From a virus (lineage: Duplodnaviria; Heunggongvirae; Uroviricota; Caudoviricetes), in IMG/VR virus record IMGVR_UViG_2703718788_000009: a DNA stretch of 13,879 nt. One strand, given 5' to 3'. Below the pieces are notes generated by a model. That model was not told where the DNA came from and searched no databases. It saw nothing but the letters and a program-made list of their open reading frames with translations. The stretch's first letter is position 1. Each line of letters opens with the position of its first letter. A program made the position numbers and the translations under genes. Shown one piece after another: positions 1 to 13,879 of the stretch.

Positions 1-120
1 AGCAAGCGCCATTATATTTTTGTGTGGTCTGTGGGGGATAAGTGCCCACTACATGGGAGTCCTTCCAGGACCTTAGCTAAAGCTAAGCCCGTTGGGTCTA
101 TGAAGCGTAAAGGTAAATGA
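1..120 (+). CDS. 3' part of a junction-spanning ORF (joins 13565..13858 if circular; 137 aa total); acidic N-terminal half, basic C-terminal tail; function unknown
   Basis: Frame of the 13565 ORF continues without a stop through positions 1..117 to TGA at 118..120, 1 nt before the ATG at 122. Not in the ORF track because it crosses the window edge. Confidence 0.4.
   Translation, partial: SKRHYIFVWSVGDKCPLHGSPSRTLAKAKPVGSMKRKGK
57..103. repeat. 47-bp repeat, copy A (two adjacent short palindromes: GTCCT-TCC-AGGAC and CTTAGCT-AA-AGCTAAG)
   Basis: About 44 of 47 nt identical to 4549..4595, including a 34-nt exact core 'gagtccttccaggaccttagctaaagctaagccc'. Confidence 0.85.
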
Positions 121-121
121 T

Positions 122-307
122 ATGAATACCTACGAAAAGATTTATCAAAAATTAAAAAGTGATAACAATGCTCCCGTCATCAAGGGCGGGGCTTCTTCCT
201 CTGGTGACCTCTCAATCGAAGAGCTTGCGGAGAAATATAATATTGATAAAGAGGCCCTGAAAAGGGCTATTTCATTATCAAAATCTTTAAGACAGGGCGA
301 GGTATAA
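122..307 (+). CDS. hypothetical 61-aa protein immediately upstream of the tape measure gene
   Basis: ORF with 'aaagg' 8 nt upstream of the ATG; its TAA stop is 1 nt before the ATG at 309, suggesting translational coupling. No recognisable motif. Confidence 0.5.
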   Translation: MNTYEKIYQKLKSDNNAPVIKGGASSSGDLSIEELAEKYNIDKEALKRAISLSKSLRQGEV

Positions 308-308
308 A

Positions 309-2438
309 ATGGCAATGAAGGAAGTCGCCAGACTAACAAACGTTATTTACTGGGATTCTGATAAATCCTCCTGGCGAAAAGAAGTTAAACGGCTTGAGGA
401 TTATAAAAAATCCTGGAAGAAAGCCACCGACGATATTGCTAAAGCTGATTTTAAGTCTAATCAGGCTGTGCTCAGAACACAAAGAACACGCGCTAAGGTG
501 GAAGAGCAGATCGCCAGAGCACAGAAGAAACAACGTGCTCAGGCTGTCAGCCGTCTGACCGGAGGCAATAATCCGGAGCTCTCCTCTATGCGCAAGTTCT
601 ATCAGCAGCAAGCCAGAGAAGCCGCCAGACAACAAAAACTGTTAGATCGTAGTGTTGGAGATGTTCAGCACAGAAAAGCACGTGTAGGGGCCAACAGTGC
701 ACGAATCAGCAGCATGTTTGATGGCTCTCTGGTTGCTCAGTTCCAATCCAGAATTCAGAGAGTTAATGCTGATTATGCTAAAGGGGCTATCAACCTGCAG
801 ACCTATAATCAGAAAATGGCCCGACTCAGAGCTGAAATGAAGATGGCATCTAGAGATGCCACCACCTTTCAAGGCAAGCTAGATAAACTGGCAGCAGGTG
901 CGAGCAAGGTGCATAACAATATCGGCAAGCTTAACAGTGCTTTAGGCAAGATAGCCATTGGCCTGACCGCTGCGGGATGGGGTATTCAGAGAGCTGTCAG
1001 CAGTGCTATGAGCGCTCAATCTGACCATAACTCAGCCTATTATGGTTTGCTTGCTCAGAACAAGGATGATAAAGCCAAGACTGACCAACAGATGGCTTTT
1101 ATCGACAGAATCTCTAACGATTATGGGATGGATCAGCGTGAGGCTGAAGGCGGCTTTATGCGCTTTGCTGCAGCCACACCGAACGTAAAAGAGGGTGATA
1201 AACAGGCTCTCTTTGAGGCTATGGCTATTAAAGGTCGCTCAGTGGGTGCTACTGCGGACCAACAGAACAGGGCTATCGTTGCACTAGGGCAGATCTATAG
1301 CAAGGGCGGTCGAGTGTATGCGGAAGAGCTTAAGGGCCAACTTTCTGAAGCCCTGGCAGGCTCTCAGGTAGATTTCACCCGTGCGGCTATCGATGCCGGA
1401 ATCATCAAGAAAGAGGAAGAATTTAATAAAGCCCTTGAAGATGGCAAGATCACCATGGACAAGCTTCTTCCCTCTCTGGTGAAAATTTGGGGTGCTGCAA
1501 AAGAAACTGACGCTTTTGCTAAATCCATGCAGCAGCCAGAGGTGGCACTGCAGAGAATGAGCAACCAGTTTTTTAAACTAAAGCAATCCTTTATGGGTGT
1601 TGTTGATCCAACTGATAACGTTATTACCCTTTCTGAATCCCTGATCTACATCTTCGAAGACTTATCATCAATTTTCAGCGGCTCAGGTGAAGATGCCAAA
1701 TCACTGGGGGTTATGCTGGGTGAGGCAATGGATACAGTTTACACCCGTGCAGTTTGGGCTATTTGGTGGATTAAGAAGATCGCTAAAGAAATCGGTGAGA
1801 TGTTCAATCTGACCGCACAGGATGCAGGAAGTTGGATAGGCACAATTGTTACCGCTATCATGGGCCTGAAGGTTGCTGGAAGCGTGGCAGGCATGGTGGG
1901 CGGCCTTATCTCTATGCTGTGGAAGCTTGGATCAGCGATCAAGGCTTTATTAGTTGGTGGCGGTGTTGGTGATATCAGCACTGGGGGCACACCAGGTAAG
2001 GGCAAACCAGGTAAAGGCGGTTTAATCGGGAAAGTAGGCAGACTGGGAAGGTTTGCAGGTCCGGCTGCAGTTATTGCTACCGGATTCGATATTGCTAATG
2101 GTCTGGATGCATACTGGCAGAATCCTGATAATCAGCGACAGGAAGGAGTTAAACACCCGGAATGGCTAACCAGCATAGTTAATGGTGCTTCTAGCTTCCT
2201 CGGCCTTGATTATCGTCTCGATGCAGGACGCTACATTACCAGACCAACACCGACGGGTGGAATGGCTATTCAGAATGGTGGCTATCAACCAGTTCAGGTA
2301 AATGTAGTTCCACAAGGTGAGATTTCCGGCAAATGGGAGATAACCATTGATGAGGGTGGAATTGCCAGGGTGATCCAGAAGGAAGTCAGCGATCAGTTGG
2401 ATTGGAAAGCCACACAGGAATCTAATCAGCTTTTCTAA
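309..2438 (+). CDS. phage tail tape measure protein (lambda gpH-like)
   Basis: 709-aa ORF with SD 'gaggt'. Charged, Ala/Gln/Lys-rich N-terminal half, two hydrophobic helices (WIGTIVTAIMGLKVAGSVAGMVGGLISMLW), then a Gly-rich segment (GGGVGDISTGGTPGKGKPGKGG). The segment EEFNKALEDGKIT resembles lambda gpH 'EELNKALKDGKIL', recalled from memory and not verified. Confidence 0.75.
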   Translation: MAMKEVARLTNVIYWDSDKSSWRKEVKRLEDYKKSWKKATDDIAKADFKSNQAVLRTQRTRAKVEEQIARAQKKQRAQAVSRLTGGNNPELSSMRKFYQQQAREAARQQKLLDRSVGDVQHRKARVGANSARISSMFDGSLVAQFQSRIQRVNADYAKGAINLQTYNQKMARLRAEMKMASRDATTFQGKLDKLAAGASKVHNNIGKLNSALGKIAIGLTAAGWGIQRAVSSAMSAQSDHNSAYYGLLAQNKDDKAKTDQQMAFIDRISNDYGMDQREAEGGFMRFAAATPNVKEGDKQALFEAMAIKGRSVGATADQQNRAIVALGQIYSKGGRVYAEELKGQLSEALAGSQVDFTRAAIDAGIIKKEEEFNKALEDGKITMDKLLPSLVKIWGAAKETDAFAKSMQQPEVALQRMSNQFFKLKQSFMGVVDPTDNVITLSESLIYIFEDLSSIFSGSGEDAKSLGVMLGEAMDTVYTRAVWAIWWIKKIAKEIGEMFNLTAQDAGSWIGTIVTAIMGLKVAGSVAGMVGGLISMLWKLGSAIKALLVGGGVGDISTGGTPGKGKPGKGGLIGKVGRLGRFAGPAAVIATGFDIANGLDAYWQNPDNQRQEGVKHPEWLTSIVNGASSFLGLDYRLDAGRYITRPTPTGGMAIQNGGYQPVQVNVVPQGEISGKWEITIDEGGIARVIQKEVSDQLDWKATQESNQLF

Positions 2439-2448
2439 TATTGTGATC

Positions 2449-2469
2449 TAAATCAATAAGTTAGCCTAA
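2449..2469. repeat. copy 1 of 20-bp repeat 'aaatcaataagttagcYtaa'
   Basis: Matches 8341..8360 at 19 of 20 positions; both copies lie downstream of the stop of a plus-strand gene. Confidence 0.7.
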
Positions 2470-2485
2470 CCGGATAAACTCCAGG

Positions 2486-2521
2486 CAAGAAAAAAGCCCC
2501 TAAGTGTTAACAAAGGGGCTC
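2486..2521. terminator. intrinsic terminator-like hairpin, strong on the minus strand, weaker on the plus strand
   Basis: Perfect 7-bp stem agcccct (2495..2501) / aggggct (2514..2520) with a 12-nt loop. The minus strand reads a U5 run after the stem; the plus strand is followed by a pyrimidine-rich 'cttctccggtatcctttt'. Confidence 0.5.
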
Positions 2522-2550
2522 TTCTCCGGTATCCTTTTGATGCGGGGCAA

Positions 2551-2598
2551 AACCTGCTAACAAAAATCAACCTCTCGCGAGACTAATGTTAGCAGGTT
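2551..2598. other. perfect 12-bp inverted repeat (aacctgctaaca / tgttagcaggtt) around a 24-nt loop that carries the 'caacctctcgc' motif
   Basis: Direct reverse-complement match within the ORF-free region between the convergent operons. Confidence 0.6.
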
Positions 2599-2939
2599 GC
2601 CGGAAGGTAAGTCAACTCCGGCCTATAAACCTTAAAGCGACTATAAAATTGCCCCGCCAATTGTGATGATCCGACCTTTGAGGCGGGTCCGGTGCCCAGG
2701 GGGTGCAGTGATGCACAAACCAGGCAACGATAAACAGGCTAACAGTGATAGCGGCGCTCAATCAGCGCACTAAATCCTAACCAGTCCGGGAAAGAGGCTG
2801 GCTCTATCGACCGCTCATGCACGGGACAATGCATACCTGATAAAGGATTCTCACAAGGGACCAATCGCGAGAAAAGAAGTGGAAAGGGGCTGATTTGTGG
2901 TGTATCACTACGGCCTCAAAAGAACACTATTGTCTTTTT

Positions 2940-3392
2940 TCAGCCTCTCCCAACATTTGACCAGTATTTGATTGCACCGATCAAATCATCATAGTGGCGC
3001 ATTGCATCATTGAAGCCTTTATAGCTTGCCCATTGTGGTGAAACTTTGTTATTGCTGAATTGCCCACTAATCAGGATAGTCTCCAAAATGTCGGCGTATC
3101 GCTTGCCAATTCGCTTTCTGACGGCCTCAGAGCTCCCACCCTTTACGATTGCATTAATCAGGGCTTTTGTGTGTCTCAGGCTCTCATAGAGCATTGCAGC
3201 GTGGGCAGATTCCATAAAGGAGCGCTTAGGCAGATCACCCCACCCCTCAGAATGGATAGCCGCCAGTGTGGCGTAATTCAGGCCGCTATAGTGTTTCCCG
3301 TCATCCCAGCCAACCGCTACACCTTCCATCTGTGAGAGCTCTTTATGCAGCTTATCCATCATGCGCTTGTCTATGGTGCAACGGACTTTCAT
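2940..3392 (-). CDS. hypothetical protein, possibly virion morphogenesis or head-tail joining
   Basis: 150-aa ORF whose ATG overlaps the upstream gene's stop in an ATGA arrangement (translational coupling). It is the last gene of the minus-strand structural operon. The functional guess rests on context only. Confidence 0.5.
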   Translation of the reverse strand: MKVRCTIDKRMMDKLHKELSQMEGVAVGWDDGKHYSGLNYATLAAIHSEGWGDLPKRSFMESAHAAMLYESLRHTKALINAIVKGGSSEAVRKRIGKRYADILETILISGQFSNNKVSPQWASYKGFNDAMRHYDDLIGAIKYWSNVGRG

Positions 3393-4168
3393 TTTGTAGC
3401 ATCCTTGGCAAACTTGGCCTGCCTTTGCTGTTTCCAGGCGCTATCAGCTGCGTCATAGTTGCCGCCGTTTTCCTCTAACAACGTGTTAAAATCTTTAGTC
3501 TTAGCCGATGGGGTGTTGGTTGAGTTCCCTACGTTGCTATTCTTCTCAGCACTGTTAACAGCACCCTTTTGCTGTGTTTTGTTCACCTTCTTGCTGTTAG
3601 TGAAGACTCCGGCATTTTCGACCATCTTCACCTTGAAGGTGCGGAATTCTTCAAAGGTGCAATCAATAGTGATGCAGTCACCAGAGGAAGAGCTACGCTT
3701 AACTTCACATTTCGTCATGATGAAGTTCTCAAGGAGTCCGGCATCTTCACTTACCAGGCTAACAAGCTGGCGCTTGTCTCTCATTTCCATAAGTGCCTGA
3801 ACAGCGGCGGCAGGGCGCATAGATTCACGGGGATTATCTGGATCAGTGTTCCGGTCAATGTAGTTCTCTTTCCGGATGATATGAGGAGAAGAGGTAACAA
3901 TACCCGTAAAGCTGACAGATTTATCTTTAATGACGGCATGGTCTGACATGGTGGTGCCATCCTCGACCGCATAGCTCGATTTCTCAACAGGGAACGAATA
4001 GCTGACATCAGAGATAGAGTCAAAGAAGATAGCCACGTTATCGGTATAGTTGAAGCCATCCATTATATTTTTGTTTTGTGAATATCCCCCACACATAACA
4101 GTGAATGCAGGAGATCTCGATTCAGCTTGTTTTGCAGCTGTCAGAGCATCACTAGCCATATTAAACAT
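3389..4168 (-). CDS. hypothetical protein, possibly a virion structural component
   Basis: 259-aa ORF. A GGAGG sits 1 nt before the first ATG and about 10 nt before the second ATG (4159), so the true start is probably 4159 (MASDALT...). Ser/Thr/Asn-rich, with a Lys/Asn-rich low-complexity C-terminus. Confidence 0.55.
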   Translation of the reverse strand: MFNMASDALTAAKQAESRSPAFTVMCGGYSQNKNIMDGFNYTDNVAIFFDSISDVSYSFPVEKSSYAVEDGTTMSDHAVIKDKSVSFTGIVTSSPHIIRKENYIDRNTDPDNPRESMRPAAAVQALMEMRDKRQLVSLVSEDAGLLENFIMTKCEVKRSSSSGDCITIDCTFEEFRTFKVKMVENAGVFTNSKKVNKTQQKGAVNSAEKNSNVGNSTNTPSAKTKDFNTLLEENGGNYDAADSAWKQQRQAKFAKDATK

Positions 4169-4264: not shown

Positions 4265-4525
4265 TTATTTTGCAAAACGATTATGGGCATTCAGGGCTTT
4301 TTTGCGGTCCTGGGCTTGTTTGCGTGCAATAAAATGTTCGAAAGTCTCGGCCCAGGTGCATTTATTATATTCACGGTATTTATGCATAGCCTGGCGGCTA
4401 ACGTCATAGCAGGCGGAAAATGTGGAGATACGCAGGAATTCCGGCAGATCCTCGTCATCGATATGGATAATATCAAAAGGCACGTCGTCACGGTCGCCGT
4501 ATAAAACAATTTTCATAAAAGACAC
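4265..4525 (-). CDS. hypothetical small acidic protein (about 83 aa from the ATG at 4516)
   Basis: The track start at 4525 is GTG; the ATG at 4516 has SD 'gaggtg' 6 nt upstream. First gene downstream of repeat copy B. Confidence 0.5.
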   Translation of the reverse strand: MSFMKIVLYGDRDDVPFDIIHIDDEDLPEFLRISTFSACYDVSRQAMHKYREYNKCTWAETFEHFIARKQAQDRKKALNAHNRFAK

Positions 4526-4548: not shown

Positions 4549-4595
4549 ATGAGTCCTTCCAGGACCTTAGCTAAAGCTAAGCCCTTTGGGTCTGT
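4549..4595. repeat. 47-bp repeat, copy B
   Basis: See copy A (57..103). Lies between the capsid-gene terminator and the next minus-strand gene. Confidence 0.85.
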
Positions 4596-4602
4596 GGATA
4601 AT

Positions 4603-4663
4603 AAAAAAGGGAAGAGGGAAAGACCTATCCCCGATCTCTCACCTCTTCCCTTTGCTTTTATTT
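4603..4663. terminator. bidirectional rho-independent terminator downstream of the capsid gene
   Basis: 9-bp stem gggaagagg (4609..4617) / cctcttccc (4642..4650) with a 24-nt loop; flanked by A6 (4603..4608, a U6 run on the minus strand) and 'tttgcttttattt' (4651..4663). Confidence 0.65.
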
Positions 4664-4679: not shown

Positions 4680-5729
4680 TTATTTAGCCTTGGCTTTTGC
4701 CAGAGCAGCGGCGGCGGCGTTTTTAACACTCACTTTAACCACAACTTCGGGCATCATGTTCATGAAAGCATAAGAGGATTCAACGAAGATTTCTCGTTTG
4801 GCTCTGGACTCTTCCATATACATGAAAGCTTCACGTGCAGCGCCGTTTGCAAGCTTCAGGTTGCGAGCGCAAGGGCCGAAAAATTGAGTATAAACGCCCA
4901 CCATATCGCCTAACGCATGCGGCTGGAACTGTGGGACCAGATAAGCAGTATTCTCTGGCAGACTATCCATTTGCACCACACGCAGAGCTAAGCCTGGAAT
5001 GCGGAAAGTCGGGAAGCCCGGCAGAATATCCTCAGGGAACATCAGACCTTTATCAGTGATATTCTGATTGCCGAACAACAGCACTTTTCGCAACAGTTCA
5101 TCAGTCTGAATTGCAGCAAAGAGCTCAGCACGGCAGAACAGGGTGAAACCACGCAGAGCGCGAACGACACCACGCTGTTTAACCTTGCTCAGCGCAACCA
5201 GGTCCTGCAGCTGTTTAAGGATATCTTTAGCTAAATCCACTTCTGAGGTGGTTTGCTGTGCGCCCAGCAGTTCGCACACATTCAGTTCTTTACCCTTGGT
5301 GAGGATAATTTTGTTCTCAAAGAGAGCAAGCTGGCGTGCTTCTTCATGGGTCTGGCGTAAGCCTTCACCAAGCTGAATAACACGACGAGCGGTTACAGAC
5401 TCTAAATTCTCTTCGGAATCTTTGCCCGGAACACGGATACCCTGCCAGTCAGAAGGATAAATAGCACTTGATGCGGCAGTGAATGCCATATCACCCGTGC
5501 CCGTTTCACGCTCATCTGCGGTAATGGTAGCCATCTGTTCACCGTAGCGCGGATACTGACCGAAAGCGGTTTGTTTCACCTGGCGAACTTTGTCATATTC
5601 AAATTTAAAGGTATTGCACAGAGCAGTAGTGTTGAAGATATCCATTGCTGAAATAATCTGGTTATCCAGCGGGATGTCTTTAATCAAGCCACACAGATCG
5701 CGGACTTCGAATTCTTTTTTCATCTCCAA
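4680..5729 (-). CDS. major capsid protein (lambda gpE-like)
   Basis: The likely start is the ATG at 5723 with AAGGAGG 6 nt upstream; the track start at 5729 is TTG. The segment SLPENTAYLV and the C-terminal 'REIFVESSYAFMNMMPEVVVKVSV' resemble lambda gpE 'FLPDNTMVLG' and 'REFTMIQSAPLMLLADPDEFVSV', recalled from memory. About 347 aa, preceded by a small beta-rich protein. Confidence 0.7.
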   Translation of the reverse strand: MEMKKEFEVRDLCGLIKDIPLDNQIISAMDIFNTTALCNTFKFEYDKVRQVKQTAFGQYPRYGEQMATITADERETGTGDMAFTAASSAIYPSDWQGIRVPGKDSEENLESVTARRVIQLGEGLRQTHEEARQLALFENKIILTKGKELNVCELLGAQQTTSEVDLAKDILKQLQDLVALSKVKQRGVVRALRGFTLFCRAELFAAIQTDELLRKVLLFGNQNITDKGLMFPEDILPGFPTFRIPGLALRVVQMDSLPENTAYLVPQFQPHALGDMVGVYTQFFGPCARNLKLANGAAREAFMYMEESRAKREIFVESSYAFMNMMPEVVVKVSVKNAAAAALAKAKAK

Positions 5730-5734
5730 CCTCC

Positions 5735-6070
5735 TTATTGTGCAACACGCAAATCGCCATTGCTGGCAGCGATAACAGCGGCTAAGCCTTCTTTATCCAC
5801 GTAGGCCGGATTGATATAACAGCCCTTGTTGGCAACAACGATAAAAGCATCACCAACCTCAGCACGTTCTACAACCAGCAGCGGAGTTTTACCGGTGTGC
5901 GTTGCTTTAACGAAGGTCTCAACCTCGCCAGCCTCAGTCACCACAACAACAGTGCCAGCCGGAATCTCAGCTTTAACTTTGTTTTTAATTTCAACGTCGC
6001 GAATACTAAATTGCTCATCTGCGGCGTATGAAATGATGTGTCCGCGTGTGCGGATAGTCATATCTCTCAT
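5735..6070 (-). CDS. putative head decoration or auxiliary capsid protein (by position)
   Basis: 111-aa ORF whose TAA stop overlaps the capsid gene's SD. Val/Thr/Gly-rich and beta-like. The assignment is positional (lambda D-E order), not from sequence identity. Confidence 0.45.
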   Translation of the reverse strand: MRDMTIRTRGHIISYAADEQFSIRDVEIKNKVKAEIPAGTVVVVTEAGEVETFVKATHTGKTPLLVVERAEVGDAFIVVANKGCYINPAYVDKEGLAAVIAASNGDLRVAQ

Positions 6071-6548: not shown

Positions 6549-6577
6549 ATTATATCAGTATTCTCTCAAATTGTCAA
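6549..6577 (-). promoter_or_regulatory. perfect-consensus sigma70 promoter (TTGACA-N17-TATAAT) on the minus strand, directed at the capsid operon
   Basis: The reverse complement of 6549..6577 reads TTGACA atttgagagaatactga TATAAT, with an AT-rich stretch upstream. Predicted start near 6540, about 470 nt before the ATG at 6070. Confidence 0.6.
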
Positions 6578-7157: not shown

Positions 7158-7418
7158 ATGACGGGGGCTAAAGATATCAGGAGATTGAGGGAAGAGCTGA
7201 TAGCTGAAATTAAAGCTAAGGCAAAGCAAATGGAGATAGCCGCACAAATGGATGTAGCGGAACAGATGTACAAGATGGTTGAAGAGGGAACACCACGGCA
7301 GGTTATAGCAAAAACATTTGGTGTGGGGATCGCCACCGTGCACAGAAGGCTGAAAGCCTATGCCGACTACCACAATATCGAGAGAAAGGAGGATGGGAGA
7401 TTTAAGAAGAATAAATAG
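7158..7418 (+). CDS. small DNA-binding protein with a helix-turn-helix motif
   Basis: 86-aa ORF with SD 'gagagg'. The motif TPRQVIAKTFGVGIATVHRRLK looks like an HTH of the resolvase or IS3 OrfA type; the N-terminus looks coiled-coil. Confidence 0.6.
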   Translation: MTGAKDIRRLREELIAEIKAKAKQMEIAAQMDVAEQMYKMVEEGTPRQVIAKTFGVGIATVHRRLKAYADYHNIERKEDGRFKKNK

Positions 7419-7475: not shown

Positions 7476-8162
7476 ATGTTTAAAGGTCTTGTTGTTACGC
7501 TATTGGCTTGCATTGTATTTGGTCCATGGGTGTTAGTAATTGCTTTACCTATATTGCTGATCATGAGCTTAGGGAATGATATTAAAAAGCTGCAAAAGCT
7601 GCATGCACAATATAAGGAGAATCCCGGCGCGTTCATGGTAAGTCTGGTTATAGTCGCGGGGCTTATTGGATGGGTGTATTTCTCCCTCCCCACAGGAAAT
7701 ACAACTGCAAATGTAGAAGAGGCCGCAGTGGTAGAGGAAAAAGCCAACAAAGGATTCAGATTTATTGTTGGTGTGGATAGCCCAGTATATGGCCCTGAAG
7801 CTGTGGATCCTGCAATGGTGCATGCCTGGTTATGGAACAGAACGGAGAAAGGTAGCTGCAATCAACTAAAAGCGAGCGCCAACATAGAAGAGGAAGGAGA
7901 TACATTTTTCGCATGGTGTAAAGATATCAAAGGCAATGATAGGTGGTTTACCATTACCAATATTGTAGGTGTTTCCCGTTCACTAATGAATCACCCTGAG
8001 GCTAAGAATCCGCTAACAGGTGTCCGATTAAAAGATGGCCCAATATGGATCGATTTATACGGAACACAAATCACTGAGGGCGTGAACAGCGATATCCAGG
8101 ATAAGCTGAAAGACATAAATAATCAGTATGGTGCGATTGTTGAAACCTCTCCTATGAAATAA
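7476..8162 (+). CDS. membrane protein with two N-terminal transmembrane helices and a roughly 150-aa C-terminal domain, possibly superinfection exclusion
   Basis: 228-aa ORF with SD 'agagg'. Hydrophobic segments at about residues 5..30 and 53..70, separated by a Lys-rich loop. Function is a hypothesis. Confidence 0.6.
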   Translation: MFKGLVVTLLACIVFGPWVLVIALPILLIMSLGNDIKKLQKLHAQYKENPGAFMVSLVIVAGLIGWVYFSLPTGNTTANVEEAAVVEEKANKGFRFIVGVDSPVYGPEAVDPAMVHAWLWNRTEKGSCNQLKASANIEEEGDTFFAWCKDIKGNDRWFTITNIVGVSRSLMNHPEAKNPLTGVRLKDGPIWIDLYGTQITEGVNSDIQDKLKDINNQYGAIVETSPMK

Positions 8163-8182
8163 CCACACCTACCCAACCTACC

Positions 8183-8216
8183 AGGGCCACCACTTAGGAT
8201 GGCCCTTTTTATTTAT
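8183..8216 (+). terminator. rho-independent terminator of the 6934..8162 module
   Basis: 7-bp stem agggcca / tggccct with a 10-nt loop, followed by 'ttttatttat', 21 nt after the stop codon. Confidence 0.7.
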
Positions 8217-8220
8217 GTGC

Positions 8221-8280
8221 TATTTAATACCCATTTATCCCCTATTTAATGCCTATTTATTGATTTAATCCGTTTTATGC
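8221..8280. repeat. phased TATTTA(A/T) repeats at roughly 11-bp spacing; possibly bent DNA or an architectural-protein site
   Basis: tatttaatacc / atttatcccc / tatttaatgcc / tatttattgat / ttaatccg / ttttatgcc in succession. Confidence 0.4.
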
Positions 8281-8340
8281 CACAACCGCCCGGTTGACAG
8301 AGTAAGAGAGAGGGTGTAACCCTTTTTCGTAATACTAATA

Positions 8341-8360
8341 AAATCAATAAGTTAGCTTAA
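8341..8360. repeat. copy 2 of 20-bp repeat 'aaatcaataagttagcYtaa'
   Basis: See 2449..2469. Confidence 0.7.
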
Positions 8361-9368
8361 TAAGCCTTTTCTCTATTTTTGTCAAATTTAACATACCCTA
8401 AAAAACTGCAAAATCTGACTGCAAGATTATCTGCAGCTGGATTTCTTACACCTCAATTTGTGGTATCACCCTGACTAGTTTGTGCATAAAATGAACAGTT
8501 TTTAACATTTCCTATTCACCTGGTAACCACACAAAAAGCTAAAAACGAGGCACAGATAATCTTAGAGGCCTGTTTTCTTGTTATCACTATGGGAACGTCG
8601 TAGAAGTGATTTTGATGAAAGATGACCTACCCTATTACACCCCCATTTTTTGTTATCACAATTGCATCCTGTGCGGTATATGGCTGTGTGCTGAAAGCGG
8701 TCTTGGGTGTGGGTGTCAGAAATATCCATTAGCGGTATTAATACCCGTCAGATGTTCGTCTGAGGTGCCAGGCAGGCGCTCCCCCACCTCCCTTTTTTCT
8801 TCTAACAATTCTCAAATATCACACCACTGCCCACCACGTTGCTATTATGTTAATTCTTAAGCTTTGCTGTATGTTGTGCACATTATTTATTCAGGTGCGT
8901 GTACGTAAATTCTGGGCCTCCTTATCATGATTTTTAAATCAGATTTTGTAGTGCGCTTTATTAGTGTAGATAAGATCTATTATGTTAAATGCAATTTTCC
9001 CAACCCTTCAAATCAATGACTTACATGTAAGCATGCACTAACACCCCACACAGCACATTAGACGTGTAGATGTCTATATCCCACATTTTTGATTGTTTTG
9101 TAGTCATTCCCCTGATCATTTAACCAGTATAGTTTGCTATCTGCAGACCACAAAATCGGAATTTACATCTGATTAACATAATCTGTTAGCATGATCACCA
9201 TTACCCACACAACAATAACCCCATGCAAGCCTCTTTAGGCAATTTATCGGCGTGTTGGTGTGAACAGTCTTTCATGTTCTTTATGTATTCATGACTGCAA
9301 GGAATGTATTCATTGGCCTGTGTGGGGGAAGGATGGACTGCCCCAGGGGCCATACTTATGATGCCCGG

Positions 9369-9404
9369 TCAACATAAGTGTTGATAAAATCAAGGGGTGT
9401 TGAT
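9369..9404. promoter_or_regulatory. pair of adjacent inverted repeats (TCAACA-N4-TGTTGA and ATCAA-N6-TTGAT); candidate operator
   Basis: Both have perfect arms; they sit just upstream of the iteron cluster. Confidence 0.4.
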
Positions 9405-9426
9405 CTGCATATTTCCCACACATGAG

Positions 9427-9520: not shown

Positions 9521-9521
9521 C

Positions 9522-9639: not shown

Positions 9640-9807
9640 ACCTGTGAAGAATTTTCACACCTGTAAATCCATACAGCACGGTAAAAACTACCGCACCACC
9701 TGTCAAAATATTTTACTACCCCACCAATAATACGGCCCATACCTGTAAAATATTTTTACTACTACCTGTCAAAATCTTTTACTACTACCTGTAAAAATAT
9801 TTGACAC
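9640..9807. repeat. iteron array with ACCTGT core (part of the candidate replication origin)
   Basis: ACCTGT occurs at 9640, 9659, 9698, 9741, 9764 and 9787, plus 9523 and 9566 in the preceding repeat. The last four sit in units of about 23 bp, 'acctgt(c)aaaatattttactac', three of them directly tandem. Confidence 0.7.
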
Positions 9808-9839
9808 TAATAGATAAAGTAACAGACCACACAATAGAT

Positions 9840-10027: not shown

Positions 10028-10906
10028 TCACGTAACTTATTGTATTTATTAAGAAAAGTCATCTACCTATATATACTACTGATTCGCCTCCGCTCATCAT
10101 TAGTATGGTGTAACTGATTCATGCTTCGCTTACGCTCACATTCATCTACTTACACCCCCTTATCTGAATTGAACATTCCCGTCCAATCCAGCTAAGAGAA
10201 TTGATTGAACATTACCTAACATCCGTTAGCTAACATTCTAATCAATTAACTACTTAAACACTTCCACACCTTCCGGTGGTGCCAAGTAACCTGGCATGGT
10301 GGGAAAAGATTCTGCCGTTTTAGGTAGAATTGATTTCCCACAAATAGTAAGTGTCGGCCCTTCAATGTCACTCTCCTATGAGGGGAGAGATGACGGGCCT
10401 CCTGTGTGGGTGAGTATCGGAGCAGTCTGTGAAGTATGAGCAGGCTGTGAGATACGCTACTGTATATCTGCGTAGAACAGCCTCCGCTGTTTACGCTCTT
10501 TGTGTGGTCCGGCGAATGCGTCAGCATGAGGCCCACATGTGGACCGCTGCCGAAAGCTTGCCAGCGCCGGAAGGAGGCAGCAAAGAGTCTCCCGCGCTCA
10601 TGTGTGGGCGTATACGTAAGATATACATTCATAAATCCAATCCTAGGCCCCTAAATGGCCTTCTGGCTGCATTAACCTGTGTGAGTAGTGCAATTGCATT
10701 ACCTGATGCTTAAATCGCGTTGTAGGGCCTCTCATAGAGAATTTAACTATCAAGATAAAAATTGCAGATCGGTCTATTGACAATCTTATTGCATAAATGC
10801 TATAAGTTATTCTGGTTTTGACACGGTAGGGGCCATTAATAATGCTTACCCCCTTTGCTGTGGACTTGCTTGCACCTATAGCACACCTAAATGATAATAA
10901 TTCTCA

Positions 10907-10970: not shown

Positions 10971-11120
10971 GTGGAAATTACTGATGCAATAGCGATCATC
11001 AACCTGGCTGTACTGTGGTGCGGTGTTGCCTACATAGCCGGAGTAACTGCAATAGACAATCTTGAAGAAAAAATGATAGATAAATACAAAAAGATTGTTG
11101 ACAATTTGACGAATGTTTGA
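10971..11120 (+). CDS. small membrane protein (49 aa, GTG start), possibly holin-like or toxin-like
   Basis: GGAGG 5 nt upstream of the GTG; VEITDAIAIINLAVLWCGVAYIAGVTAIDNLEEKMIDKYKKIVDNLTNV has one transmembrane-like helix and a charged C-terminal tail. Absent from the ORF track. Confidence 0.3.
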   Translation: MEITDAIAIINLAVLWCGVAYIAGVTAIDNLEEKMIDKYKKIVDNLTNV

Positions 11121-11126
11121 TAAAAT
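11098..11126 (+). promoter_or_regulatory. strong sigma70 promoter (TTGACA-N17-TAAAAT) for the leader and Rep operon
   Basis: -35 at 11098..11103, a 17-nt spacer, -10 at 11121..11126. Confidence 0.6.
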
Positions 11127-11176: not shown

Positions 11177-11206
11177 CGGGGCTTGTCTTGAGTCCCGTTT
11201 CTTTTT
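11177..11206 (+). terminator. intrinsic terminator or attenuator in the leader between the promoter and the first operon gene
   Basis: Stem cggggc / gtcccg (one G-U pair) with a 9-nt loop, followed by 'tttcttttt'. It lies about 45 nt after the predicted start and 44 nt before the ATG at 11250. Confidence 0.55.
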
Positions 11207-11249: not shown

Positions 11250-11459
11250 ATGGCTAAAACCGGACCGATAAGCCAGCTGGTAAACTGGACTACTGACGAA
11301 ATCGTCGAGAACGTGCTTAAAGGTAACTTTCGCAAAACTTCCGTTTATGCATTTATTCGAAAACACAAAGGAGAATATCCACACATTGAAGCGGCAATAG
11401 AAAAATTAAACTTTATTAAACTTGAGCGCCAGCTTGAAAGATATAAACACCTACTTTAA
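11250..11459 (+). CDS. hypothetical small basic protein, possibly a regulator; first gene of the Rep operon
   Basis: 69-aa ORF with SD 'aggag' 8 nt upstream. Confidence 0.55.
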   Translation: MAKTGPISQLVNWTTDEIVENVLKGNFRKTSVYAFIRKHKGEYPHIEAAIEKLNFIKLERQLERYKHLL

Positions 11460-11495: not shown

Positions 11496-12410
11496 ATGAA
11501 TATTGAGTCTGTTTTTAATATAACTTTAAATGATGATCCTAGTATCCTTTTGCTGCCAATGCTCATAAATAAATCTGGACTATTAAAAAGAGGCGACGCA
11601 AGGGATATCTATATTTACATGTGGAATACTTACTATCTCCACGCTAAAAAAGAGGCCGCCAAGGTGTTCAGCAAGAAGACTAAAGGAAGAAGCCTCAGCC
11701 AGGATATGAAAAACTCCATCAGAAAAGAGTGTTTTGCTATTAAAGATAAAGATTCCTGTGTGGAGATCTCTTATAAGGATATAGAGGAAAGAATTGGAAT
11801 ACTGCGACCAAATGCAGTAAGGGCAATTAAAAAGCTGGAATCTGAAGGAATTATCACCTGCCTTAAAAAAGGCAATAAGCATAACCCTTATGCATCATGG
11901 CAAATTAATGTCGGAATCTTTGAAATGATGGAAAGAGTAGGGATTGAAAACCTCATTGGGTGGGATCTCTTAAAACCATATTGGAAGAAAGAACAGGAAG
12001 CAGCCGGAAGAGGGGAGGGGGCCAAAGCTCCACAGGAAGCTCCAAAACAAGCCGCACAGCAGCCTGAAGACACACCCGAAGGGGTGACCGTAGGTCACCT
12101 GGCTAAGCCAGCGAAAGAGTCCAAAGTGGTGCAATTCCCTTCTGTGAAAGATAAAGACGTTAGCGTAGAGCACAACTCTTATTCCGAAAGTGTGACAACG
12201 TCACCTGTTAAGGCAAACAAGAAGGAGGCATCTAAAGTGATAGATATTTCTTCTTTTATGGCAGATGAAGATGATACGCAAGATGTGTGGTATACACCTT
12301 CAGAAAATGATTATAGTGGTAGTGGTGGTTATGATCCTTATGGCTATGATGAGGATGAATACAACCCATTTGAAGATGAATATACAAATGATTCCGCTAT
12401 CCCTTATTAA
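11496..12410 (+). CDS. putative replication initiator (winged-helix, lambda-O/RepA-like N-terminal domain) with a long disordered acidic C-terminal tail
   Basis: 304-aa ORF with SD 'agagg'. The segment 'VEISYKDIEERIGILRPNAVRAIKKLESEGIITC' resembles the winged-helix DNA-binding domain of lambda O 'RITDSQLSEITKLPVKRCNEAKLELVRMNII', recalled from memory. The C-terminal 140 aa are low-complexity and end in ...EDEYTNDSAIPY. Confidence 0.55.
   Translation: MNIESVFNITLNDDPSILLLPMLINKSGLLKRGDARDIYIYMWNTYYLHAKKEAAKVFSKKTKGRSLSQDMKNSIRKECFAIKDKDSCVEISYKDIEERIGILRPNAVRAIKKLESEGIITCLKKGNKHNPYASWQINVGIFEMMERVGIENLIGWDLLKPYWKKEQEAAGRGEGAKAPQEAPKQAAQQPEDTPEGVTVGHLAKPAKESKVVQFPSVKDKDVSVEHNSYSESVTTSPVKANKKEASKVIDISSFMADEDDTQDVWYTPSENDYSGSGGYDPYGYDEDEYNPFEDEYTNDSAIPY
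12072..12120. repeat. 50-bp repeat, copy B, embedded in the Rep-like coding sequence
   Basis: Matches 6842..6890; encodes ...TPEGVTVGHLAKPAKE... in the disordered tail. Confidence 0.8.
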
Positions 12411-12498: not shown

Positions 12499-12987
12499 AT
12501 GTTCAAATCTGATCTTTCTGATTCCCAATTTGAAAAACTGGTAGCACTGCAGAAATATCTCCCCAGTGATGATCAACCAACACGACAGGCTAAACACTTA
12601 TTAGTCGAGGGCTTTACCCCTGAATTCGTGGCGGAATACACAGGCGTTAAACTTGAGAAAGTCCAAAAACTATATAATGAGTCCTGGAATCCACGGTGTC
12701 GAGTTCCCCTCAGTGTCTACAACGAAATAGACAGAGATAGAAATGTCTTCGAAGATCGCCGCCGCAAATCTCTTTTAATGTGGAATTGTGGGATGAATAT
12801 TGAAGAGATAGCAAAAGAATTAAAAGTAACCTGCTTTCATATCTGGGGCTTGTTGAGTGAAATCCTGCCACGTAAGGAGCTTAATCAACGTTTGCCTAAG
12901 CCCGGCAGTCGTGCTTATCGCGAATTTATATTCATCTACCGCCGCCATAGCAATAAAGTCCGGAAAGCAATGGCCCAGAAAGCCTAA
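12499..12987 (+). CDS. DNA-binding protein with two predicted helix-turn-helix motifs (regulator or small-terminase-like; unresolved)
   Basis: 162-aa ORF with SD 'ggag'. HTH-like segments FTPEFVAEYTGVKLEKVQKL and MNIEEIAKELKVTCFHIWGLL; basic C-terminus. Confidence 0.55.
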   Translation: MFKSDLSDSQFEKLVALQKYLPSDDQPTRQAKHLLVEGFTPEFVAEYTGVKLEKVQKLYNESWNPRCRVPLSVYNEIDRDRNVFEDRRRKSLLMWNCGMNIEEIAKELKVTCFHIWGLLSEILPRKELNQRLPKPGSRAYREFIFIYRRHSNKVRKAMAQKA

Positions 12988-13060
12988 GTTTTATCTCTTC
13001 GATTTATTTATTTTCGACTCACTTTAACCCCTTCCGGGGCTCTAATTTAAGGAATTCCAA

Positions 13061-13504
13061 ATGTCTCAAATCGCTAAATTACTATCCCAGGTTATCAAAG
13101 CTTTCGACGCTGAAGATTCAAAAGTTCGCCAGGATCTTTTAGATGGCAAGTTTACCAACACCCTGGCATTTACCCGTGACAAAGAGCACTTCTTAAAACA
13201 CAGACACCACGCTTTTGCTGAATGCAAGTCCGCTAATGGTGATGTTTTCTATGTCGATTTGGTGGTTATGGCATGTAGGCTGTGGATGATTCAGGACCTT
13301 ATGCGCCAACACGGTGATGATCCTCTTATCAGCATGTGGAACAGCGCCCAGGATGGCTTTGTGATTGCTGCCTTATCCAAATCAATGATTGAGGCAGAAG
13401 GGGCAAGCCTTCAGAACATGGCAGATCTCTTTGAAATAAGCGTAGGAATGATGCAGACCATGCTCCAAGCTGTCAAACCTCTCAAACTGGTTAATCTTGA
13501 TTAA
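13061..13504 (+). CDS. hypothetical protein (147 aa), probably alpha-helical
   Basis: ORF with SD 'aagga' 7 nt upstream; no recognisable motif. Confidence 0.5.
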   Translation: MSQIAKLLSQVIKAFDAEDSKVRQDLLDGKFTNTLAFTRDKEHFLKHRHHAFAECKSANGDVFYVDLVVMACRLWMIQDLMRQHGDDPLISMWNSAQDGFVIAALSKSMIEAEGASLQNMADLFEISVGMMQTMLQAVKPLKLVNLD

Positions 13505-13564
13505 GCTATTGATAAATAAGCACTCCCCATTTTTTGGGGGGTGCATCAATGAGAGGATATGCCT

Positions 13565-13879
13565 ATGAATATTGAAGAAATGATAGTTGAATTCGAAGAG
13601 GGTGATTTCCTGGAAGATGGGGAGTTTAAATACTCCCGTTTTAAACAGGCGTTATTTAGCAGCGATGATAAACCCCACGTTAGTGATCTTAATGACGATG
13701 ATTTATGTCGTTGGGTATGCACCCGCTTATATGAGGATGGAAAATATACAGGCCAAAACTTTCCAAATCTCTATTTCAAAGCACAAACATTTGAGGAAGG
13801 GCAAAGAGTGAAAAACCTGATCGATAAAATGCTTTCAGCCGGATATTTGCATGCTGAAAGCAAGCGCCATTATATTTTT
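13565..13879 (+). CDS. 5' part of the junction-spanning ORF (acidic protein; continues at 1..120 if circular)
   Basis: ATG at 13565 with SD 'gagagga' 7 nt upstream; open to the window end. The overlapping track ORF 13587..13811 is in another frame and looks spurious. Confidence 0.5.
   Translation, partial: MNIEEMIVEFEEGDFLEDGEFKYSRFKQALFSSDDKPHVSDLNDDDLCRWVCTRLYEDGKYTGQNFPNLYFKAQTFEEGQRVKNLIDKMLSAGYLHAESKRHYIF
13859..13879. other. 21-nt terminal redundancy identical to 1..21, marking a circular junction or assembly overlap
   Basis: 'agcaagcgccattatattttt' occurs at both ends of the window. Confidence 0.9.

What the first reader, a model, noticed from the sequence alone, without database searches (positions are those of the whole stretch)
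1..13879. Window appears to be a closed circular replicon of about 13,858 bp
The first and last 21 nt are identical. An ORF with a good SD at 13565 stays in frame across that junction and stops at 118..120, 1 nt before the next gene's ATG. Gene order is also coherent around the circle: the Rep operon runs through the junction into the tape measure gene and converges on the minus-strand capsid operon at 2440..2940. The alternative is a 21-bp direct repeat flanking an integrated island.
Basis: seen in the sequence. Interest (0 to 1): 0.6.

Follow-up and report, generated by a model that had tools for sequence, protein, structure and literature searches.

The report
Small E. coli plasmid carrying phage-particle genes
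The window is a complete 13.9-kb circular E. coli plasmid that carries only four or five virus-particle genes, all related to the large lytic rV5-type phages, so it is probably an undescribed plasmid-borne parasite (satellite) of those phages, though this has not been shown.

Summary
Bases 1-21 equal 13859-13879, and the ORF from 13565 reads through the joined ends to TGA 118-120. Seven closed circular E. coli plasmids of 13.2-13.7 kb (90-95% identical) carry the joined sequence unbroken with one copy of the 21-mer. None of 5,426 complete E. coli chromosomes has a copy.

The element is an iteron/Rep plasmid. It encodes a major capsid protein, tape measure protein, tail-tube initiator and tail-completion protein, but no terminase, portal, sheath, tube or integrase was found. 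The closest phage homologues of all four are in rV5-like Vequintavirinae (24-50% aa). Two structured non-coding blocks beside the plasmid iterons match the origin-like region of those phages at 84-87% nt, with five compensatory base-pair changes. A 25-nt motif matches the phage terminal repeat.

All genes are under purifying selection (dN/dS 0-0.2). The same gene order persists in relatives whose capsid protein is only 30-40% identical.

Best reading: a helper-dependent plasmid satellite, or an interference element, of lytic rV5-like phages. That part is inferred, not shown. I found no paper describing this family.

The parts
1..21 (.). Terminal overlap, copy 1. It is identical to 13859-13879, and the true circle has one copy.
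13859..13879 (.). Terminal overlap, copy 2. It is redundant.
13565..13879 (+). Junction ORF, 5' part. The whole ORF is 137 aa, of unknown function, and sits where rV5-like phages have the tail assembly chaperone upstream of the TMP.
   Evidence: dN/dS 0.16. No family match.
22..120 (+). Junction ORF, 3' part, ending at TGA 118-120. It includes a 17-codon in-frame mini-insertion.
57..111 (+). Three-hairpin mini-insertion, copy 1. It is absent from L009, L010 and L012.
122..307 (+). 61-aa ORF immediately upstream of the TMP.
   Evidence: dN/dS 0.00.
309..2438 (+). Tape measure protein, 709 aa. The C-terminal third (about 1700-2299) is hypervariable within the family.
   Evidence: PF20155 3.5e-13 and phrog_5255 6e-131. 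PDB 9cuy_W, the phiTE TMP, 4.6e-19. 24% identical to FV3 ORF49 over the full length. Variability.
2439..2939 (.). Convergent intergenic region, the most conserved part of the plasmid (99-100% identity). A hairpin at about 2490-2525 (AAAAAAGCCCC...GGGGCTCTTCT), which I read as a two-way terminator, lies at its start. The minus strand of 2526-2850 folds strongly.
   Evidence: The hairpin is read from the sequence printed; the scan did not list it. Fold -122 kcal/mol, z -4.76. No cer/XerCD core. Only a weak sub-threshold Rfam hit.
2940..3392 (-). Tail completion / Neck1 protein, 150 aa.
   Evidence: phrog_222 1e-28. 44% identical to FV3 ORF56.
3389..4168 (-). Tail-tube initiator (Dit-like), 259 aa.
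   Evidence: PF21821 1.5e-25 and phrog_5197 7e-100. PDB 9cuy_K 'tube initiator' 4.5e-34 and Phi92 gp135. 49-51% identical to Vequintavirus.
4265..4525 (-). Conserved small ORF, 83-86 aa, of unknown function.
   Evidence: 32% identical homologue in L018.
4551..4605 (+). Three-hairpin mini-insertion, copy 2.
4680..5729 (-). Major capsid protein, about 346-349 aa, lambda gpE / HK97 type.
   Evidence: phrog_29 3e-22. 24% identical to the FV3 MCP over the full length. PDB 9cul_G. Relatives carry PF03864.
5735..6070 (-). 111-aa ORF upstream of the MCP, in the position of a head decoration protein. Its function is unproven.
   Evidence: Conserved at 47% and 24% identity in L018 and L019. hhalign to the FV3 decoration protein is not significant. 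The AF2 model is poor.
6549..6577 (-). Perfect sigma-70 consensus promoter facing the capsid operon.
   Evidence: 12/12 match with an extended -10. It shares a 46-nt similar sequence with the promoter at 11098-11126 (I1).
7158..7418 (+). 86-aa HTH_7 DNA-binding protein.
   Evidence: PF02796 3.4e-6
7476..8162 (+). 228-aa predicted membrane protein. Other family members carry non-homologous alleles here.
   Evidence: No family match.
8163..9421 (.). Gene-free region that is 96% conserved across the family.
   Evidence: No CDS is annotated here in any relative.
8797..8821 (+). 25-nt motif that matches 24/25 with positions 27-51 of the 459-bp terminal repeat of Vequintavirus HdK5, and also matches FV3. 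It is a candidate packaging signal and a lead only.
   Evidence: The 19-nt core is exact in 11 of 12 family members.
9695..9808 (+). Four 23-nt iterons. Their sequence changes with the Rep allele in relatives while the spacing is kept.
10344..10403 (+). Structured block 1, shared with the origin-like intergenic region of rV5-like phages (87% nt).
   Evidence: Two compensatory pair changes.
10537..10597 (+). Structured block 2, shared with the same phage region (84-85% nt).
   Evidence: Three compensatory pair changes. Found nowhere else in the plasmid or E. coli collections.
10971..11120 (+). 49-aa hydrophobic ORF, annotated in all relatives.
11098..11126 (+). Near-consensus promoter (11/12). 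A terminator-like hairpin follows at 11175-11199, upstream of the Rep operon.
11250..11459 (+). 69-aa ORF, first gene of the Rep operon.
   Evidence: dN/dS 0.10.
11496..12410 (+). Rep initiator, 304 aa, with a winged-helix domain and weak similarity to lambda O-like initiators. Alleles differ by about 55% nt within the family.
   Evidence: phrog_678 4e-5, phrog_391 and MarR/CodY HTH matches. Allele exchange.
12499..12987 (+). 162-aa protein, the most conserved gene (98-99% nt). The model shows two helix-turn-helix units.
   Evidence: AF2 pLDDT 78.5. No significant fold match.
13061..13504 (+). 147-aa protein of unknown function.

Best explanation
Shown: the window is one complete copy of a circular, extrachromosomal E. 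coli plasmid of 13,858 bp. The 21-nt end repeat is an assembly overlap. The plasmid replicates from an iteron origin (9695-9808) with its own Rep (11496-12410).

Shown: besides regulators and unknown genes, it carries a fixed subset of virion genes. These are a major capsid protein with a small upstream partner, a tape measure protein with two small upstream ORFs, the tail-tube initiator, and the tail-completion protein. It has no terminase, portal, protease, sheath, tube, baseplate wedge, fibres, lysis genes or integrase, so it cannot build or fill a particle by itself.

Inferred: it is a helper-dependent satellite of lytic rV5-like (Vequintavirus) myophages that waits in the cell as a plasmid. 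On infection, its structural operons are switched on. They are driven by two near-consensus promoters that share a 46-nt sequence, which probably acts as a common operator. Its capsid protein builds a shell sized for about 14 kb instead of about 137 kb. Its tube initiator, TMP and completion protein start, measure and cap a tail made from helper tube, sheath and baseplate. Helper replication and packaging enzymes act on cis elements that the plasmid shares with the phage: the two structured blocks at 10344-10597 next to its iterons, and possibly the 25-nt terminal-repeat motif at 8797-8821.

My confidence is about 0.95 that it is a circular plasmid of this family, about 0.8 that it has a specific evolutionary and ecological tie to Vequintavirus, and about 0.45 that it is a transmissible satellite.
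For: Circle:
- The terminal repeat and the in-frame junction ORF are present.
- The junction is contiguous, with one copy of the 21-mer, in 7 closed circular plasmids.
- An independent metagenome contig closes through its own 55-nt overlap.
- None of the 9 places in 5,426 complete E. coli genomes is chromosomal.

Replicon:
- Iterons lie next to Rep.
- Three Rep alleles each come with a different iteron sequence at the same 43/44-23-23 spacing.

Gene content.

Tie to Vequintavirus:
- The best phage homologues of the tube initiator (49-51%), Neck1 (44%), TMP (24%, full length) and MCP (24%, full length) are all in rV5-like phages.
- The pairings of small protein with MCP, and of two small ORFs with TMP, mirror FV3 ORF60-59 and ORF51-50-49.
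- Non-coding blocks 10344-10403 and 10537-10597 match 120 rV5-like phage records at 84-87% nt. In the phage, the matching region has 3-4 iterons plus an AT-rich stretch next to a gene annotated as a replication initiator.
- There are 5 compensatory pair changes and none broken in the stems that vary.
- A 24/25-nt match lies inside the 459-bp terminal repeat of HdK5, and its core is exact in 11 of 12 family plasmids.

Functional, not decaying:
- dN/dS is 0.00-0.20 for every gene.
- The gene order of about 110 aa, MCP, small ORF, Dit-like and, in L018, a Neck1-like protein is kept where the MCP is only 40% (L018) and 29% (L019) identical. No Neck1 homologue was detected in L019.
- The plasmid occurs in isolates from humans, cattle, pig and chicken on five continents.
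- A head-to-tail trimer record exists.
Against: - There is no evidence that the plasmid is ever encapsidated. It is absent from the phage collection by megablast and from IMG/VR by both a protein-pattern scan and an exact-DNA scan.
- No small terminase, capsid-size redirector or anti-repressor was recognised. Six proteins have no assignable function.
- The MCP is only 24% identical to the phage MCP, so it is unclear how it would use the helper's portal, scaffold and protease.
- The 25-nt terminal-repeat match is statistically borderline (E about 0.003-0.009).
- Block 1 is present in only 2 of 8 aligned plasmids and block 2 in 5 of 8, so neither is universal in the family.
- One natural derivative carries a resistance transposon inside the TMP gene and still persists, so the TMP is not needed for maintenance.
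- Why a satellite would need its own TMP is unexplained.
Confidence: 0.5

Rival explanations
1. It is an anti-phage interference plasmid. The diverged capsid protein, TMP, tube initiator and tail-completion protein act as poison subunits or decoys that derail assembly of infecting rV5-like phages. The plasmid itself is not packaged. The variable membrane protein may add exclusion.
For: The gene subset consists of proteins that nucleate, measure or cap assemblies, which is where a few foreign subunits can do most damage. The TMP C-terminal third and the membrane protein are hypervariable, while the MCP is 95-99% identical across the family, a pattern expected in an arms race. There is no sign of encapsidation.
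Against: There is no match to any PADLOC defence model. At 24% identity the MCP and TMP are unlikely to co-assemble with the phage proteins. The shared non-coding elements are not needed for a pure decoy. In known satellites, interference and satellite spread are not exclusive.
Confidence: 0.2
2. It is a cryptic plasmid descended from a phage or phage-plasmid. The structural genes are leftovers with no present role, and the plasmid spreads only vertically or by chance transduction or mobilisation.
For: PLSDB types it as non-mobilizable. It is rare, found in 7 of 5,426 complete genomes. A derivative with a disrupted TMP exists.
Against: Every gene has dN/dS of 0.00-0.20. The same minimal gene set and order is retained at 29-40% MCP identity. 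About 500 near-identical MCP sequences sit on contigs of plasmid size. The hosts are diverse and come from five continents.
Confidence: 0.15
3. It is one segment of a split (multipartite) phage or phage-plasmid genome, with the missing virion and packaging genes on another replicon in the same cell.
For: The gene set is complementary to what a full virion needs. Host strains carry other plasmids of 95-120 kb.
Against: The MCP has no relatives on any other plasmid in PLSDB. I did not find a shared partner replicon, though I inspected co-resident plasmids only superficially.
Confidence: 0.05
4. It is an integrated island or prophage fragment bounded by a 21-bp direct repeat, or a linear molecule with a 21-bp terminal redundancy.
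For: Only the bare fact of a 21-nt direct repeat at the ends.
Against: The repeat lies inside an ORF that is contiguous in all closed relatives. There are no chromosomal copies. No integrase or tRNA was found.
Confidence: 0.02

Closest known systems
Closed E. coli plasmids NZ_CP020521.1 (strain 190 unnamed4), NZ_CP035869.1 (pE275a_13), NZ_CP074841.1, NZ_AP045055.1, NZ_CP178698.1, NZ_JBUCKS010000006.1, CP148565.1, CP134895.1 and NZ_CP043822.1 (a trimer)
   Same: They have the same gene order and the same size (13.2-13.7 kb). They are 90-95% nt identical over 69-86% of the window, and the MCP is 95-99% aa identical. All are circular and typed non-mobilizable.
   Different: They are mosaic relative to the window: different Rep/iteron alleles, a different membrane-protein allele, a TMP only 65-76% aa identical, and presence or absence of the mini-insertions and of phage-like block 1. 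None is functionally characterised. I found no paper that describes them.
PLE of Vibrio cholerae (satellite of the lytic myophage ICP1)
   Same: Both would be small elements that lie dormant in the host and exploit a strictly lytic myovirus, with their own replication initiator and origin. A much smaller genome than the helper's implies small capsids (established knowledge; PMC10002752 as listed).
   Different: PLE is integrated, uses the helper's coat protein remodelled by TcaP, and encodes no MCP or TMP. This element is a plasmid with its own MCP, TMP, tube initiator and tail-completion protein. No sequence relationship was found.
Capsid-forming PICIs (cf-PICIs)
   Same: They are satellites that encode their own HK97-fold capsid protein rather than stealing the helper's.
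   Different: cf-PICIs are integrated, encode a full head and packaging module (portal, protease, connectors, terminase subunits), and take only tails from the helper. This element has only the MCP plus one small partner, has tail-measuring genes, and has no integrase.
P4 (satellite of P2), which can persist as a plasmid
   Same: Both have an extrachromosomal maintenance state, a size of 11.6 versus 13.9 kb, dependence on a myovirus for virion parts, and helper cis packaging sequences on the satellite.
   Different: P4 encodes no capsid or tail structural proteins. It has Sid, Psu, an alpha primase-helicase and an integrase. None of these was detected here.
rV5-like phages (Vequintavirinae: rV5, FV3, FFH2, HdK5, phiTE, phi92)
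   Same: They are the source, or the closest relatives, of the four structural genes and of the structured origin-side blocks. The G+C content is the same, 44%.
   Different: These phages have 121-150 kb genomes (Vequintavirus about 138 kb; PMC6563267), a T=13 capsid solved for phiTE (PMC11972413) and a full virion and replication gene set. The plasmid holds about one tenth of that DNA, and its MCP and TMP are only 24% identical.
pDolos (rolling-circle plasmid satellite of an inovirus)
   Same: According to the 2025 review PMC12282955, it is the only phage satellite shown to be a plasmid.
   Different: Its helper is a filamentous phage, it replicates by rolling circle, and it carries no structural genes. 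It is unrelated to this element.

Membership tests
Iteron-type theta plasmid replicon | Closed circular extrachromosomal molecule | tested here: met
   There are seven closed circular relatives, the junction is contiguous in them, and no copy is chromosomal. The window itself closes only through a 21-nt overlap. No reads were available.
Iteron-type theta plasmid replicon | Directly repeated iterons next to the initiator gene, with specificity matched to the initiator | tested here: met
   The window has 4 x 23-nt iterons at 9695-9808. Three Rep alleles pair with three iteron sequences at the same spacing.
Iteron-type theta plasmid replicon | Rep protein belonging to a recognised initiator family | tested here: inconclusive
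   There are only weak matches: phrog_678/391 'replication initiation O-like' at 4e-5 and 2e-4, and winged-helix HTH below the Pfam cut-offs.
Phage satellite (general) | Lacks the genes needed to make and fill a virion on its own | tested here: met
   No terminase, portal, protease, sheath, tube, baseplate, fibre or lysis family appears in the Pfam or PHROGs scans of the ORFs. The largest unassigned ORF is 228 aa.
Phage satellite (general) | Is packaged into particles and transferred only with a helper phage | not testable with these tools
   This needs infection and transduction experiments. Sequence searches of phage and virome collections found no copy.
Phage satellite (general) | Carries cis sequences recognised by helper replication or packaging machinery | tested here: inconclusive
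   The structured blocks are shared only with Vequintavirus. There is also a 24/25-nt match inside the phage terminal repeat. The function of either is unknown.
cf-PICI | Integrase and chromosomal attachment site | tested here: not met
   No integrase family was found, and all copies are on plasmids.
cf-PICI | Complete head and packaging module (MCP, portal, protease, connectors, terminase) | tested here: not met
   Only the MCP and a 111-aa partner are present.
P4-like satellite | Sid/Psu/Delta, alpha primase-helicase, integrase and a P2-type cos site | tested here: not met
   There are no such Pfam, PHROGs or PADLOC matches. A cos site was not searched for specifically.
Phage-plasmid (autonomous temperate phage kept as a plasmid) | Full complement of virion, packaging and lysis genes together with plasmid replication | tested here: not met
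   The element is 13.9 kb and has 4-5 structural genes only.
Vequintavirinae structural gene families | TMP, tube initiator, tail completion and MCP homologous to the rV5/phiTE virion proteins | tested here: met
   Identity to FV3 proteins is 24-49%. PDB chains matched: 9cuy_K 4.5e-34, 9cuy_W 4.6e-19, 9cul_G 2e-4. This shows homology of the parts, not membership of the phage taxon.

The most novel reading that the evidence does not exclude
This would be a new class of phage satellite: a self-replicating plasmid in E. coli that parasitises strictly lytic, roughly 137-kb rV5-like myophages. It would supply its own size-setting virion parts (capsid shell protein, tape measure, tube initiator, tail terminator) and borrow everything else. 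It would use origin-side structured elements and a terminal-repeat motif copied from the helper to be replicated and packaged into miniature particles. It can also carry resistance genes: one natural derivative has strAB/tet cargo.
Probability: 0.35. Interest if true: 0.85.

Novelty: new variant of a known kind. Interest (0 to 1): 0.62.

Why it matters
The known satellites of tailed phages are chromosomal islands. A 2025 review states that only one plasmid satellite, of a filamentous phage, has been shown and that many more may exist (PMC12282955). This family would be a concrete, culturable E. coli candidate, with closed reference sequences and named host strains.

Its part list is unlike any described satellite: own capsid protein, tape measure, tube initiator and tail terminator, but no portal or terminase. 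Its helper would be a lytic phage group used for O157 typing and biocontrol. If the family interferes with or hitch-hikes on those phages, that matters for phage therapy and biocontrol outcomes and for the transfer of resistance genes by 'non-mobilizable' plasmids.

Even if the satellite idea fails, two things remain to be explained. One is a structured non-coding element shared exclusively between a plasmid origin and the origin-like region of a phage. The other is a 500-bp region that is 99-100% conserved.

Tried and rejected
- Integrated-island reading: rejected.
- tRNA/tmRNA scan and Rfam at gathering threshold found nothing. At the E-value threshold there was only a weak ctRNA_p42d hit at 2485-2525 (23.6 bits against a cut-off of 50), which is probably just the terminator hairpin.
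- Megablast of the whole window against phages gave no match.
- MCP against phages by tblastn at 1e-5 gave no match. The homology to the FV3 MCP appeared only in a small local database and through PHROGs and PDB.
- PADLOC gave no defence-system match.
- A cer/XerCD core search in the conserved 2439-2939 region found none.
- Pattern scans for MCP relatives found none in IMG/VR or in GTDB species representatives. One alignment was too diverse to use. An exact 35-mer from the conserved region is also absent from IMG/VR.
- The 111-aa protein as a decoration protein: profile comparison with FV3 ORF60 was not significant, there was no PDB match, and the AF2 model was poor at pLDDT 44, so no fold search was run.
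- The 162-aa protein: the AF2 model (pLDDT 78.5) shows two HTH units, but Foldseek found nothing with E below 0.3. It is not demonstrably a small terminase.
- nhmmer searches for further copies of the hairpin mini-elements returned nothing usable.
- One search was a mis-specified alignment and carries no information.
- Co-resident replicons were only sampled, so the multipartite idea was not properly tested.

Full report
**1. The observation**

The first and last 21 nt of the window are identical (AGCAAGCGCCATTATATTTTT). No longer terminal overlap exists, so removing one copy leaves 13,858 bp.

The ORF that starts at ATG 13565 has GAGAGGA about 9 nt upstream. It reads across the joined ends for 137 codons to TGA at 118-120. 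One base later, ATG 122 opens a 61-aa ORF, and this ORF abuts the 709-aa gene at 309-2438.

The plus-strand genes run from about 11250 through the junction to 2438. There they meet the minus-strand genes 6070-2940 at a 500-bp gap.

**2. Is it a circle?**

Seven records in the complete-genome E. coli collection, and five in PLSDB, match the window at 90-95% identity. Three are in both collections, so there are nine distinct accessions. They are deposited as complete circular plasmids of 13,238-13,697 bp, each opened at a different position.

All nine matching places in 5,426 complete genomes are on plasmids and none is on a chromosome.

A 400-nt probe made by joining the window's ends aligns straight through the join in every relative. 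Each has a single copy of the 21-mer, and RefSeq annotates the junction ORF there as an uninterrupted gene of 127-144 aa.

A SPAdes metagenome contig of the same family (L020, 13,895 bp) closes on itself through its own 55-nt overlap.

The 21-nt repeat is therefore an assembly overlap inside a gene, not an attachment-site duplication. What I could not do is look at reads for this particular molecule.

**3. What the plasmid encodes**

Replication:
- Four 23-nt iterons lie at 9695-9808.
- A 304-aa initiator has a winged-helix signature and weak similarity to lambda O-type initiators.
- In relatives, Rep is replaced by alleles that share only about 45% nt identity. The iteron sequence changes with Rep while the spacing of 43/44-23-23 nt is kept. 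This is the behaviour of matched initiator/origin modules.

Virion genes:
- Tape measure protein: PF20155; phrog_5255 at 6e-131; PDB 9cuy_W at 4.6e-19.
- Tail-tube initiator: PF21821; PDB 9cuy_K 'tube initiator protein' at 4.5e-34.
- Tail-completion/Neck1 protein: phrog_222 at 1e-28.
- Major capsid protein: phrog_29 at 3e-22; PDB 9cul_G.
- A 111-aa ORF precedes the capsid gene, and 137-aa and 61-aa ORFs precede the TMP. These are the positions of the decoration protein and the tail chaperones in phage FV3. I could not show homology for them.

Everything else consists of small DNA-binding proteins (an 86-aa HTH_7 protein, and a 162-aa protein whose model has two HTH units), a hypervariable 228-aa membrane protein, and unknowns.

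No terminase, portal, protease, sheath, tube, baseplate, fibre, lysis or integrase family was found. The element cannot make or fill a particle alone.

**4. Link to rV5-like phages**

The best phage homologues of all four structural proteins are in Vequintavirinae, lytic myophages of about 121-150 kb:
- tube initiator, 49-51% aa;
- Neck1, 44%;
- TMP, 24% over the full length;
- MCP, 24% over the full length.

Non-coding DNA adds a stronger link. Window 10344-10403 and 10537-10597 match 120 rV5-like phage records at 84-87% nt. This is far higher than the coding similarity.

In the phages, the matching blocks sit in a 640-bp intergenic region. That region lies next to a gene annotated as a replication initiator or transcriptional regulator. 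It begins with three or four roughly 21-nt iterons and an AT-rich stretch. In the plasmid, the blocks sit on the same side of its own iterons.

Both blocks form hairpins. Between the plasmid and phage versions there are five compensatory base-pair changes, and none is broken in the stems that vary.

Block 1 is in 2 of 8 aligned plasmids and block 2 in 5 of 8. This suggests exchange with the phage rather than ancient inheritance.

Vequintavirus HdK5 has an exact 459-bp terminal repeat inside a gene-free region (458 bp in PMC6563267). Window 8797-8821, in the plasmid's own conserved gene-free region, matches positions 27-51 of that repeat at 24 of 25 nt. The 19-nt core is exact in 11 of 12 family members. 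The E-value is only about 0.003-0.009, so I treat this as a lead. The phage gene-free region is also the top window for shared 11- and 12-mers (z about 3.5-4), though base composition may contribute to that.

**5. Is the gene set functional?**

Pairwise dN/dS against nine relatives is 0.00-0.20 for every gene: MCP 0.09, tube initiator 0.12, Neck1 0.00, TMP N-terminal part 0.20.

A search of 1.84 billion representative proteins finds only 29 clusters related to the MCP. The two nearest are about 40% and 29% identical to it. Both sit in the order of about 110 aa, MCP, small ORF, Dit-like protein. L018 then has a Neck1-like protein. L019 has no detectable Neck1 homologue and instead a long opposing ORF that runs off the contig. 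A minimal set kept intact over that distance is an evolved unit, not debris.

The close family comprises about 500 MCP sequences in 18 clusters. Eleven of the 18 have a longest contig of 13.4-14.3 kb. All source names given say E. coli. The isolates come from humans, cattle, pig and chicken on five continents.

**6. Mosaic structure**

In 200-nt bins, the most conserved stretches are:
- the 'empty' convergent region 2439-2939, at 99-100%;
- 6300-6500;
- 8358-9157;
- the 162-aa gene.

The most variable stretches are:
- the membrane protein;
- the iteron region;
- Rep;
- the C-terminal third of the TMP.

The TMP is 65-76% aa identical overall, against 95-99% for the MCP.

The minus strand of 2526-2850 folds at -122 kcal/mol, z -4.76. 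With no variation in the family, covariation cannot be tested.

Two near-perfect sigma-70 promoters face the capsid operon (6549-6577, 12/12) and the Rep operon (11098-11126, 11/12). They share a 46-nt sequence, which suggests joint control.

**7. Interpretation**

Shown:
- It is a circular iteron plasmid.
- It carries a conserved, selected subset of Vequintavirus-type virion genes.
- It shares cis elements exclusively with those phages.

Inferred: it is a plasmid-borne satellite of lytic rV5-like phages. Under this reading it supplies the size-setting parts (shell protein, tape measure, tube initiator, terminator) and borrows the rest. The genome is about one tenth of the helper's, whose capsid is T=13 in phiTE (PMC11972413). 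I put this at about 0.45.

Rivals:
- An assembly-interference plasmid (0.2), which is not exclusive of the satellite reading.
- A cryptic relic (0.15), which is disfavoured by selection and by the deep conservation of the architecture.
- One segment of a split phage genome (0.05), which I did not test properly.

Against the satellite idea:
- There is no sign of encapsidation in any collection.
- No terminase small subunit or capsid-size redirector was recognised.
- The capsid protein is very distant from the phage's.
- A derivative with a transposon in the TMP gene persists.

**8. Comparison with known systems**

It works most like PLE (a satellite of a lytic myophage) and like cf-PICIs (which have their own capsid protein). 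It fails the defining features of both, and of P4: no integrase, no full head module, no Sid/Psu.

It is not a phage-plasmid.

I found no paper on this family. A 2025 review says only one plasmid satellite, of an inovirus, is known.

**Verdict**

The finding itself, a closed circle, is correct but ordinary: near-identical plasmids are already in RefSeq. The biology behind it looks like a new variant of phage satellite and is testable with named strains and phages.

Noticed in passing
window 57-111 and 4551-4605; L002 (NZ_CP020521) origin region; window 6838-6894 and 12068-12124: The family carries short insertions of about 51-57 nt, each made of three small hairpins, that are present or absent between plasmids. 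One adds 17 in-frame codons to the junction ORF in the window and L002 but is missing in L009, L010 and L012. A copy in L002 sits between two GTGTGG motifs, and the stems covary between copies. A second type lies in the Rep linker. It has an 80% match inside a small ORF near the right end of phage HdK5, which may instead reflect a shared peptide motif.
   Followed up: partly
L003 = NZ_CP043822.1 (39,610 bp): This 'plasmid' record is a head-to-tail trimer of the 13.5-kb unit, with frameshifted copies. It is either a long-read assembly artefact or real multimers, which would matter if a large phage head packages concatemers.
   Followed up: partly
L016 (NTNY01000053.1, 30,105-bp contig), insertion near window position 2065-2112: A natural derivative carries about 16 kb of resistance cargo (aminoglycoside phosphotransferase genes that look like strA/strB, an IS transposase, a TetR-family regulator) inserted in the hypervariable end of the TMP gene. 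The plasmid can therefore carry resistance genes and survive without an intact TMP.
   Followed up: partly
window 13852/13853, 6 nt upstream of the terminal 21-mer: The window lacks 21 nt (AAAGAATTATTAAATCCTAAA, 7 codons KELLNPK) that all five relatives in alignment A8 have. It is in frame, so it may be a real polymorphism. Its length equals the terminal overlap, so an assembly effect near the contig end cannot be excluded.
   Followed up: no
window 1700-2299 (TMP C-terminal third) and 7558-8157 (membrane protein): These two segments are replaced by very divergent or non-homologous alleles between otherwise 95-99% identical plasmids. The pattern fits host-range or exclusion determinants under diversifying exchange.
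   Followed up: partly
window 2439-2939: This is the most conserved 500 bp of the plasmid (99-100% across the seven aligned relatives), yet it has no ORF. The minus strand folds with z -4.76. It could be an RNA, a packaging site or a resolution site. No cer-like XerCD core was found.
   Followed up: partly
window 6925-7056, about 7058-7138, and 10971-11120: Small hydrophobic ORFs of 26-49 aa with plausible ribosome-binding sites lie upstream of the HTH_7 gene and upstream of the Rep operon. The 49-aa ORF is annotated in all relatives. They could be membrane peptides or toxins, but nothing was tested.
   Followed up: no
window 8213-8275 and 9523-9585: Two further repeat arrays lie here: TATTTA-type repeats with about 11-nt phasing just after the membrane gene, and two copies of ACCTGTTGGGATTTCCCACA spaced 43 nt apart. 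The second array is kept even in plasmids whose main iterons differ; in L010 this sequence is itself the iteron. They may be binding sites for the other DNA-binding proteins.
   Followed up: no
FV3 (NC_019517) 104328-106594; HdK5 (MK373780) 1-1505 and 137890-139328: rV5-like phages have a gene-free region of their own, 2.3 kb in FV3 and about 2.5 kb in HdK5, which in HdK5 holds the physical genome ends (459-bp direct terminal repeat). The plasmid's gene-free stretch (8163 to about 10970) is of similar length.
   Followed up: partly
PLSDB CP057073.1 (137,565 bp); GenBank MG0656xx 'Campylobacter phage' records: An rV5-like phage genome is filed as an E. coli plasmid. About 16-22 records labelled Campylobacter phage also match like rV5-type E. 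coli phages. These labels look unreliable.
   Followed up: no
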